This document shows positions 13,904 to 14,153 of a stretch of DNA of 32,000 nt, piece after piece. Below the pieces are notes generated by a model that made no database searches, was not told the DNA's origin, and saw only the letters and a list, made by a program, of their open reading frames with translations. Source of the DNA: Serratia marcescens (GTDB lineage Bacteria > Pseudomonadota > Gammaproteobacteria > Enterobacterales > Enterobacteriaceae); NCBI GenBank assembly GCA_015548865.1, contig JADMXW010000012.1:49045-81044 (forward strand), given 5' to 3'. Made by a program: the position numbers and the translations under genes. The stretch's first letter is position 1. Each line of letters starts with the position of its first letter.

Positions 13904-14153
13904 CGGCAGAAATACACCGGTTTAAAGAATTACTGATCTGGTTTTGCGAATACTGATATTGATGATACTAACGGCCCACCGGCCTGTTGAGGAACCTGTA
14001 AAACGGAAAGGCTCATTGAAGCCGTATATTTTCTGGAGGTTCATCAGGCGCGGAACTCATCAAGGCGCGGGAATAAAATCCCATTCAGACGCCGGATAGA
14101 TTCAAGCAAGCCAACTTGTCGTCAAAATCGGTGTTGCAAAAACGGGAGTGACC
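13904..14153 (+). ncRNA. Candidate IS-encoded guide (bridge/seek-type) RNA region in the 3' non-coding arm
   Basis: Contains GGATAGATTC (14094-14103), identical to the reconstructed empty site, and AAACGGAA (14001-14008), the reverse complement of the right flank 14159-14166. Both sit in predicted internal loops closed by short stems. Transcript ends and strand are not established. Confidence 0.45.

What the first reader, a model, noticed from the sequence alone, without database searches (positions are those of the whole stretch)
13904..14153. The IS110/IS1111-type element carries exact copies of its own uninterrupted target site in its 3' non-coding arm: candidate bridge/seek guide RNA
If the IS is removed and one copy of the flanking ATA is kept, the GH1 frame is restored and the empty site reads ...GTAGGGATAGATTCCGTTTAC... 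on the plus strand. Inside the IS, 50 nt from its right end, GGATAGATTC (14094-14103) is a 10/10 match. It spans left flank, core and right flank, so it matches the empty site and neither present-day junction. AAACGGAA (14001-14008) is the exact reverse complement of the adjacent right flank TTCCGTTT (14159-14166). My rough chance estimate for the 10-mer is about 250 nt x about 20 target positions x 2 strands x 4^-10, which is of order 0.01. That figure does not count the fact that the match is centred on the insertion point. Both segments appear unpaired within stem-closed loops. GACG(14089-92)/CGTC(14120-23) and CAAG/CTTG enclose CCGGATAGATT. GAACCT(13992-97)/AGGTTC(14037-42) encloses the AAACGGAA segment plus a small hairpin GGCT..AGCC. 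The same loop holds weaker donor-like matches: CTCATTGAA (14012-20), 8/9 to the reverse complement of the left IS end TTTAATGAG, and ATATTT (14026-31), equal to core plus the first left-end bases. RNA-guided target and donor recognition by IS110/IS1111 recombinases (bridge RNA, seekRNA) was reported in 2024, with the RNA downstream of the transposase in IS1111-type elements. This element would be an unannotated instance whose guides can be read directly against a known target.
Basis: partly seen in the sequence, partly recalled or inferred. Interest (0 to 1): 0.85.

Follow-up and report, generated by a model that had tools for sequence, protein, structure and literature searches.

The report
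IS4321 guide RNA, guides misassigned

Summary
The element (window 12833-14159, 1327 bp) is 100% identical to IS4321, an IS1111-type element known to insert into Tn21-family terminal repeats. In more than 100 other copies, ATAGAT follows GGGAGTGACC whatever the flank, so it belongs to the element. The true empty site is GGGATATTT|TCCGTTTAC. Three results support this. GH1 homologues have K (113 of 120) at the junction codon and never I.

GGATAGATTC (14094-14103) is therefore not an empty-site match. It is an internal copy of the right end plus two flank bases. It is nearly invariant in relatives with unrelated targets, and its core changes together with the right end (ATAGA, ATACA, ACAGA, ACACA).

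The real target guides are AAAACGGAAA (14000-14009) and TATATTTTC (14025-14033), in a loop closed by a stem that shows compensatory changes. Both co-vary with the flanks (0 of 50,000 permutations).

The RNA mechanism was published in 2024, and one of those papers lists IS4321 with a bridge RNA detected in its right end. Interest is low to moderate.

The parts
12833..14159 (+). IS4321 copy, 1327 bp (AATGAG...CCATAGAT). There is a 1-nt T ambiguity. On the family's 7-bp left / 3-bp right extension rule it is 12832-14158.
   Evidence: 100% identical over its length to E. coli copies annotated as IS4321 family. Boundaries were fixed by more than 100 copies in different flanks and by rebuilding an uninterrupted Tn21-type repeat.
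12839..12850 (+). Left sub-terminal inverted repeat, ATGGTCACTCCC.
   Evidence: pair I3: 12 nt, 100% complementary to 14144-14155.
14144..14155 (+). Right sub-terminal inverted repeat, GGGAGTGACCAT.
   Evidence: pair I3.
12899..13903 (+). Transposase gene, 334 aa, DEDD/IS110 type.
   Evidence: ORF. Pfam PF01548 (E 1.3e-20) and PF02371 (E 4.4e-20).
13937..14159 (+). Conserved part of the 3' non-coding arm, the candidate long seekRNA / bridge RNA.
   Evidence: Conserved down to 43% transposase identity. Consensus fold has 44 pairs, 98% of cells paired and 11 pairs with compensatory changes. Single-sequence fold z = -3.2.
13982..13997 (+). 5' arm of the stem that closes the target-binding loop (GCCTGTTGA, then CCT).
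   Evidence: Helices 5 and 6. In helix 5, 5 of 8 pairs have changes on both sides. Coordinates.
14000..14009 (+). Target guide G5, AAAACGGAAA, within the variable block 13998-14009. [quoted passage not shown]
   Evidence: 10/10 to Tn21-type sites and 9/10 to this window's site. Co-varies with the right flank: 8.4 of 11 matches for cognate pairs against 6.1 for non-cognate, with 0 of 20,000 permutations as high. Also 0 of 50,000 after collapsing to 18 lineages.
14010..14023 (+). Small hairpin (GGCT CATTGA AGCC) between the two target guides.
   Evidence: Helix 7. The stem is conserved with 2 compensatory pairs. The loop sequence varies.
14025..14033 (+). Target guide G3, TATATTTTC, within the variable block 14024-14035. 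[quoted passage not shown]
   Evidence: 8/8 to this window's site. Co-varies with the left flank: 8.0 of 10 against 6.0, with 0 of 20,000 permutations as high. Confirmed.
14037..14049 (+). 3' arm of the target-loop closing stem (AGG, then TCATCAGGC).
   Evidence: Helices 5 and 6.
14056..14060 (+). Candidate left-end (donor) guide, CTCAT, complementary to ATGAG of the left end (12834-12838). The evidence is weaker, and it overlaps predicted helix 3.
   Evidence: Relatives show matching changes: CCCAT/ATGGG, TTCCAT/ATGGAA, CATCTCAT/ATGAGATG, TTCAT/ATGAA. Several lineages are discordant.
14064..14093 (+). Conserved hairpin (GGCGC GGGA ataaaa TCCC ... GACGCC) between the two candidate donor guides.
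   Evidence: Helices 8 and 9. In helix 9, all 4 pairs have changes on both sides.
14094..14103 (+). Its core, 14096-14103, is an exact copy of the right IS end plus two flank bases (ATAGAT|TC). It is a candidate right-end (donor) guide and is unpaired in the consensus fold.
   Evidence: Direct repeat D17. Nearly invariant across lineages with unrelated targets. Its 5-mer changes together with the right end: ATAGA 193 loci, ATACA 8, ACAGA 2, ACACA 2 (these counts include some contigs fetched twice), with one discordant locus read by eye.
14134..14139 (+). TTGCAA, a -35-like hexamer. After circularisation it lies 17 nt upstream of GATAAT, which is formed across the junction ATAGAT|AATGAG.
   Evidence: Read from the in-silico circle junction. 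TTGCA is invariant in the alignment. Junction promoters are described for this family in PMC11187229. Not tested here.
12824..12832 (+). Left half of the target, GGGATATTT, inside the disrupted GH1 gene.
14160..14168 (+). Right half of the target, TCCGTTTAC.

Best explanation
This is an ordinary copy of IS4321 (IS1111 group of the IS110 family). It landed in a chromosomal GH1 (6-phospho-beta-glucosidase-like) gene at a site that resembles its normal target, the 38-bp terminal repeat of Tn21-family transposons.

Its 3' non-coding arm encodes a seekRNA / bridge RNA of the published IS1111 type.

Target-binding loop (13982-14049), closed by a co-varying stem:
[quoted passage not shown] - The two footprints overlap by about 4 nt at the insertion point.

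Downstream, on either side of a conserved hairpin, lie two segments that match the element's own ends:
- CTCAT (14056-14060) is complementary to the left end.
These most likely form the donor-recognition part of the RNA.

Shown here: the element's identity, its boundaries, the true empty site, co-variation of both target guides with their flanks, the conserved structure, and co-variation of the 10-mer core with the right end.

Inferred, not shown: that the RNA is made, that it binds the transposase, and that the matches act by base pairing.
For: Identity and family:
- 100% identity to annotated IS4321 copies.
- Pfam DEDD_Tnp_IS110 and Transposase_20.
- 12-bp sub-terminal inverted repeats.

Boundaries and empty site.

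Target guides:
- Natural reprogramming shows in relatives. For example, L061 and L093 differ in the second guide (GACACTTTT against GACGGTTTT) and in the left flank (CACACTT against CACGGTT). L070 has GGGAGTTTT with flank GGGAGTT|TT.
- Permutation tests gave 0 of 20,000 and 0 of 50,000.

Structure:
- 98% of cells paired, 11 pairs with compensatory changes, 0 of 500 shuffles as good, and slid controls at 29-46%.

Donor side:
- The 5-mer of the 10-mer core and the right end share four different states, with one exception.

Literature:
- seekRNAs of IS1111 elements carry a top-strand match 5' of a bottom-strand match, and the two overlap in the target (PMC11187229).
Against: - There is no transcript, RNA-protein or transposition data for IS4321 here.
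- Rfam 15 has no family that hits this arm, even at E up to 10, so no curated model confirms it.
- Evidence for the left-end guide is mixed. Several lineages are discordant, and CTCAT overlaps a predicted RNA helix (helix 3) whose 5' arm also co-varies with it.
- For ISEc11 the short seekRNA, which carries only the target loop, was enough for movement. The downstream donor-like part may therefore be dispensable or have another role.
- Co-variation counts are not corrected for phylogeny.
Confidence: 0.85

Rival explanations
1. GGATAGATTC is a target guide that spans the uninterrupted insertion site (left flank GG, a 3-bp ATA core, right flank GATTC), and it sits in its own stem-closed loop.
Against: - ATAGAT is part of the IS in every copy.
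- GH1 homologues have K at the junction codon, not I.
- The 10-mer is essentially invariant in lineages with unrelated targets.
- Its proposed stems are not conserved.
Confidence: 0.02
2. The internal right-end copy (CCGGATAGATT) is not a base-pairing guide. It could be a protein-recognition motif: the transposase would bind the same short sequence in the RNA and at the DNA end, so the two would co-evolve without RNA-DNA pairing. Alternatively it could be a structural part of the RNA scaffold.
For: - The flanking bases CCGG and AAGCAAGCC are also nearly invariant, as expected for a scaffold or protein site.
- The short seekRNA alone sufficed for ISEc11, and the authors say the role of the long form is unknown.
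Against: - Same-sense identity across four co-varying states is what RNA pairing with the bottom strand predicts.
- Durrant et al. report donor-complementary nucleotides in IS1111 bridge RNAs.
- The last base often follows the adjacent flank base: C with TC, T with TT, G with TG. A pure end-binding motif would not predict this.
Confidence: 0.2
3. All the short matches between the arm and the ends or flanks are chance, and the arm is conserved for another reason, such as the junction promoter, transposase regulation or a terminator.
For: - Exact repeats of 8-10 nt are common in this 1.36-kb stretch. There are 17 direct and 17 inverted, including a 10-nt match inside the coding region.
- The last 25 nt of the arm do look like the -35 half of a junction promoter.
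Against: Chance cannot explain guide-flank co-variation across 18-27 lineages, compensatory stem changes, or the four concordant states shared by the 10-mer core and the right end.
Confidence: 0.02

Closest known systems
IS4321 / IS5075 (Partridge & Hall 2003, cited in PMC11187229; ureC insertions in Klebsiella pneumoniae, PMC8269217)
   Same: The sequence is identical. The window has the same 1327-bp length, the same 12-bp sub-terminal repeats, and the same target core TATTTTCCGTTT in the same orientation. As with ureC, it sits in a chromosomal gene that happens to resemble the Tn21 repeat.
   Different: Nothing about the element itself differs. Only the host site is particular: a GH1 gene next to hemY. 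I did not check whether this GH1 site has been reported before.
seekRNAs of ISEc11, ISKpn4, ISPa11 and ISPst6 (Siddiquee et al. 2024, PMC11187229)
   Same: - The RNA lies downstream of the transposase gene.
- There are two short target matches, top-strand match 5' of bottom-strand match, and they overlap at the insertion point.
- Both sit in a stem-closed loop.
- Close relatives show natural reprogramming.
   Different: - Transposase identity to those elements is low. IS5075 is about 30-40% identical to the ISKpn4 group in that paper's identity matrix.
- The main text of that paper does not dissect an IS4321 seekRNA.
- No RNA or activity data exist here.
IS621 bridge RNA (Durrant et al. 2024, PMC11208160; Hiraizumi et al. 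2024, PMC11208158)
   Same: - Each DNA partner is read on both strands by two short guide segments.
- There are separate target-reading and donor-reading parts.
- The last base of the right-end copy may follow the target flank, which resembles a handshake guide.
   Different: - The RNA is at the right end, not the left.
- The strand order of the guides is reversed.
- A hairpin sits between the two guides of each pair.
- The shared core appears to be 1 nt (T) rather than a CT dinucleotide.
- The sub-terminal repeats are 12 bp long.
- The donor-side segments are not in a simple internal loop.

Membership tests
IS1111 group of the IS110 family (specifically IS4321) | DEDD transposase with the IS110 N-terminal domain and the PF02371 C-terminal domain | tested here: met
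   PF01548 at E 1.3e-20 and PF02371 at E 4.4e-20.
IS1111 group of the IS110 family (specifically IS4321) | Nucleotide identity to the named element | tested here: met
   100% over 1328 nt to many E. coli copies annotated 'IS110-like element IS4321 family transposase'.
IS1111 group of the IS110 family (specifically IS4321) | Sub-terminal inverted repeats of about 11-13 bp | tested here: met
   ATGGTCACTCCC and GGGAGTGACCAT, 12 nt, 100% complementary (pair I3).
IS1111 group of the IS110 family (specifically IS4321) | Asymmetric terminal extensions beyond the repeats (7 bp on the left, 3 bp on the right) and no target duplication | tested here: met
   TAATGAG on the left and AGA on the right once the ambiguous T is assigned to the left. 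The rule is stated in PMC11187229. Removing 1327 bp rebuilds an uninterrupted Tn21-type repeat with no extra bases.
IS1111 group of the IS110 family (specifically IS4321) | Long non-coding region downstream of the transposase gene | tested here: met
   About 256 nt from the stop codon (13903) to the end (14159), against 66 nt upstream.
IS1111 group of the IS110 family (specifically IS4321) | Insertion at one position and in one orientation in a specific sequence | tested here: met
   Near-identical IS4321/IS5075-type copies lie at ...ATTT|TCCGTTTT... in one orientation, with a few variant or degraded flanks.
seekRNA / bridge RNA of IS1111-type elements | Two short segments matching opposite strands of the target, overlapping at the insertion point, with the top-strand match on the 5' side | tested here: met
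   14000-14009 and 14025-14033 against GGGATATTT|TCCGTTTAC.
seekRNA / bridge RNA of IS1111-type elements | Guide segments co-vary with the target among relatives | tested here: met
   0 of 20,000 and 0 of 50,000 permutations reach the cognate score.
seekRNA / bridge RNA of IS1111-type elements | Conserved secondary structure that presents the guides unpaired | tested here: met
   Consensus fold with compensatory changes. Both guide blocks are unpaired.
seekRNA / bridge RNA of IS1111-type elements | Segments that recognise the element's own ends (donor) | tested here: inconclusive
   The right-end copy co-varies cleanly: four states and one exception. The left-end complement is supported in some lineages and not in others.
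seekRNA / bridge RNA of IS1111-type elements | The RNA is expressed, co-purifies with the transposase and is required for circle formation and insertion | not testable with these tools
   No expression or biochemical data. Shown for ISEc11, ISKpn4, ISPa11 and ISPst6 only.
seekRNA / bridge RNA of IS1111-type elements | Match to a published covariance model | not testable with these tools
   Rfam 15 gave no hit. The Durrant et al. models are not available here, but their Supplementary Table 5 lists IS4321 as 'RE'.

The most novel reading that the evidence does not exclude
In IS1111-type elements the 'long' seekRNA, whose role the discoverers left open, may carry a second module built like the target loop. 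It would have a left-end guide (CTCAT), a conserved hairpin, and a right-end guide (GATAGATT). The last base of the right-end guide would follow the target flank like a handshake guide. An upstream RNA arm (TGATGA, 13960-13965) mimics the left end and could mask the left-end guide. If so, IS4321 would offer a fully readable four-guide code for a clinically widespread element.
Probability: 0.4. Interest if true: 0.45.

Novelty: already known. Interest (0 to 1): 0.25.

Why it matters
IS4321 and IS5075 are very common on resistance plasmids. More than 5000 plasmid records in the collection searched carry one. They also cause recurrent chromosomal insertions, such as the ureC inactivation found in 14% of Klebsiella pneumoniae genomes (PMC8269217).

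Knowing which bases of the RNA read which bases of the target explains why sites such as this GH1 gene are hit. It would also let off-target sites be predicted.

This is an application of a mechanism published in 2024, not a new one. The main value of this check is corrective. The boundary of an IS1111-type element cannot be set from one copy, and the most striking match in the window read the element's own end, not its target.

Tried and rejected
- An Rfam 15 scan of 12500-14500 at E up to 10 gave only two chance hits (SNORD96 and HIV-1_SD). There is no bridge RNA or seekRNA family to match.
- Partridge & Hall 2003 (PMC219399) is not held, so the published IS4321 boundaries were re-derived from data.
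- A tblastn of the transposase against plasmids was saturated by near-identical copies (5000 or more at 95% or higher) and gave no distant relatives. Distant relatives came from the metagenome and viral contig scans instead.
- No uninterrupted Tn21-type repeat lay inside the fetched loci. It was found by searching plasmids.
- The hairpin loop CTCATT as a left-end guide was rejected. The loop varies while the left end does not.
- The variable block after AAGCAAGCC (14112-14123) was inspected by eye for co-variation with the repeats, the left end or the flanks. Nothing convincing was found.
- The last base of the 10-mer as a handshake position is only suggestive. There are exceptions in L049, L077, L098, L180, L189, L190 and L193.
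- Two of my regular-expression extractions were mis-anchored and redone (then 65). L236 and L242 were read by eye.
- A 2026 preprint on half-match excision could not be opened.

Full report
**What is there**

Window 12833-14159 holds a 1327-bp insertion sequence.
- It has a 334-aa transposase gene on the plus strand (12899-13903).
- The protein carries the two Pfam domains of IS110-family DEDD transposases.
- The whole element is 100% identical to hundreds of E. coli copies annotated as IS4321.
- It has perfect 12-bp sub-terminal inverted repeats, ATGGTCACTCCC at 12839-12850 and GGGAGTGACCAT at 14144-14155.
- It interrupts a minus-strand GH1 glycosidase gene next to hemY.

**Check of the observation**

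One stem is a base off. The sequence they were compared with is not right.

I fetched 80 related loci from reference genomes, 80 from metagenomes and about 80 from viral contigs, some of them the same contigs fetched twice. I then read the junctions.
- In every copy with a readable right end, GGGAGTGACC is followed by ATAGAT, whatever lies to the left of the element. ATAGAT is therefore the right terminus of the IS, not target.
- With AATGAG...ATAGAT removed, the commonest flanks join to CTTAGCGTGCTTTATTTTCCGTTTTCTGAGACGACCCC. This exists uninterrupted at 100% identity in at least 2594 plasmid records, beside merR or Tn3-family transposase genes.

In the window the true empty site is GTAGGGATATTT|TCCGTTTAC.
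- It encodes VNGKYPYY.
- An uninterrupted orthologue with 90% protein identity is colinear with it.
- Both reconstructions remove 1327 bp, so the restored frame never discriminated between them.
- The 'ATA' on both sides is a coincidence of target (GGATA|TTT) and IS end (CCATA|GAT). Elements of this family make no target duplication.

**What the 10-mer really is**

GGATAGATTC (14094-14103) contains ATAGATTC. That is an exact second copy of the right IS end plus the first two flank bases (14154-14161, D17). The leading GG matches this site's left flank only by chance.

In an alignment of 34 distinct arms, with transposase identity down to about 70%, the block GACGCCGGATAGATT is almost invariant, although the elements sit in unrelated targets.

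GACGCC pairs instead with an upstream GGCGC (helix 8).

**The real target guides**

Two blocks of the arm vary between lineages: 13998-14009 and 14024-14035.
- In IS4321 the first reads GTAAAACGGAAA. Its reverse complement, TTTCCGTTTT, is the right half of the target read across the insertion point.
- The second reads TATATTTTCTGG and contains ATATTT|TC, the left half plus the first right-flank bases.
- The two footprints overlap by about four bases.

Relatives are reprogrammed in step with their flanks.
- L061 has GACACTTTT with left flank CACACTT, while L093 has GACGGTTTT with CACGGTT.
- L070 has GGGAGTTTT with GGGAGTT|TT, and its other guide has reverse complement TTTTGTTTC with right flank TTGTTTC.

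Across 27 lineages, cognate guide-flank pairs match at 8.4 of 11 and 8.0 of 10 positions, against 6.1 and 6.0 for non-cognate pairs. None of 20,000 permutations reached that. After collapsing to 18 clearly different lineages and adding more distant ones, the result was 0 of 50,000.

The ATATTT it labelled 'donor-like' is part of the other true target guide.

**Structure**

The consensus fold of the 34 arms has 44 pairs.
- 98% of cells are paired.
- 11 pairs have changes on both sides.
- No shuffle did as well, and slid controls reached only 29-46%.
- The stem closing the target loop (13982-13990 with 14041-14049, plus 13995-13997 with 14037-14039) has five compensatory pairs.
- A small hairpin (14010-14023) separates the two guides.
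- The window's own arm folds better than shuffles (z = -3.2).

**The donor side**

More distant relatives, with 37-65% transposase identity, have different right ends. In them the internal copy changes in step with the right end.

| Internal 5-mer | Right-end 5-mer | Loci |
|---|---|---|
| ATAGA | ATAGA | 193 |
| ATACA | ATACA | 8 |
| ACAGA | ACAGA | 2 |
| ACACA | ACACA | 2 (a further locus, L236, was read by eye) |

These counts include some contigs fetched twice. One locus (L242) is discordant.

Its last base (14103) often equals the second base of the right flank: C with TC, T with TT, G with TG. There are exceptions. This resembles the handshake guides of IS621, but it is only suggestive.

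Upstream of the conserved hairpin at 14064-14093, CTCAT (14056-14060) is complementary to ATGAG of the left end.
- Some relatives change both sides together: CCCAT/ATGGG, TTCCAT/ATGGAA, CATCTCAT/ATGAGATG, TTCAT/ATGAA.
- Others do not.
- The segment overlaps predicted helix 3, whose 5' arm also follows it.

I regard a left-end guide as possible but not shown.

Read this way, the arm has two similarly built modules, each a guide, a hairpin and a guide. The first reads the target and the second reads the element's ends. In the integrated state the right junction would be read by the right-end copy on one strand and by the first target guide on the other. That is how IS621 excision substrates bind across both loops.

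**Comparison with what is known**

- IS4321 and IS5075 and their target are long known (cited).
- Siddiquee et al. 2024 showed that IS1111-type elements use a seekRNA from the downstream non-coding region. It has a top-strand match 5' of a bottom-strand match, and the two overlap in the target. Relatives are naturally reprogrammed. They re-derived the IS4321 target logo from nearly 900 insertions.
- Durrant et al. 2024 predicted bridge RNAs in 93% of IS1111 elements. [quoted passage not shown]
- In a full-text search I found no paper that spells out the IS4321 guides. The base-by-base assignment given here is therefore a small addition to known biology, not a discovery.

**Verdict**

- The element and its mechanism are already known.
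- Nothing here shows that the RNA is made or that it acts by pairing. That needs the experiments listed under next steps.

Noticed in passing
window 14134-14159 joined to 12833-12850 (in-silico circle junction): Circularisation would create TTGCAA, a 17-nt spacer and GATAAT across the junction ATAGAT|AATGAG. This is a near-consensus sigma-70 promoter facing the transposase gene. TTGCA is invariant in all relatives. In lineages whose right end is ATACAT, the -10 element becomes CATAAT.
   Followed up: partly
window 13234-13243 and 14156-14165: A perfect 10-nt inverted match links the transposase coding region (AACGGAATCT, within the codons for PRTESQ) to the right IS-target junction (AGATTCCGTT). 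It is probably chance. It shows how easily 8-10-nt matches arise in this stretch.
   Followed up: no
window 13960-13965 and 14057-14062: The 5' arm of predicted helix 3 (TGATGA) resembles the left IS end (AATGAGA). In distant relatives it changes together with both the left end and its pairing partner, for example in L231, L236 and L225. This three-way relationship could mean an RNA arm that mimics, or competes with, the left end.
   Followed up: partly
L030, L032, L035, L037, L051: IS5075-like copies (about 98% protein identity), with Tn21-type repeat flanks identical to enterobacterial ones, occur on short contigs of assemblies labelled Kitasatospora, Brachybacterium, Streptomyces and Streptacidiphilus. 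They probably reflect contamination of those assemblies rather than real hosts.
   Followed up: no
L069 and L077: Two Xenorhabdus relatives have ACAAGATGG in place of AATGAGATGG at the left end. They also share the preceding 20 nt (CATCATAAACC.GATTAAAGAT). Either the true left boundary lies further out, or both sit in the same repeated target.
   Followed up: no
L048 and L049: L048 lacks 17 nt of the arm, which removes the candidate left-end guide, and its element is shortened to 1244 bp. L049 lacks the conserved hairpin (helix 9), and its first guide differs (TATATCGGAAT), with a correspondingly different right flank (TCGATATCC). These may be decayed or retargeted copies.
   Followed up: no
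window 12218-12832 and 14160-14984, minus strand: The interrupted gene encodes a 479-aa GH1 6-phospho-beta-glucosidase-like protein next to hemY. Intact orthologues with 90% identity, and the same hemY neighbour, occur in metagenome contigs (L161-L164). Their site reads GGGATACTTGCCGTT, which matches the IS4321 guides less well than the window's GGGATATTTTCCGTT.
   Followed up: partly
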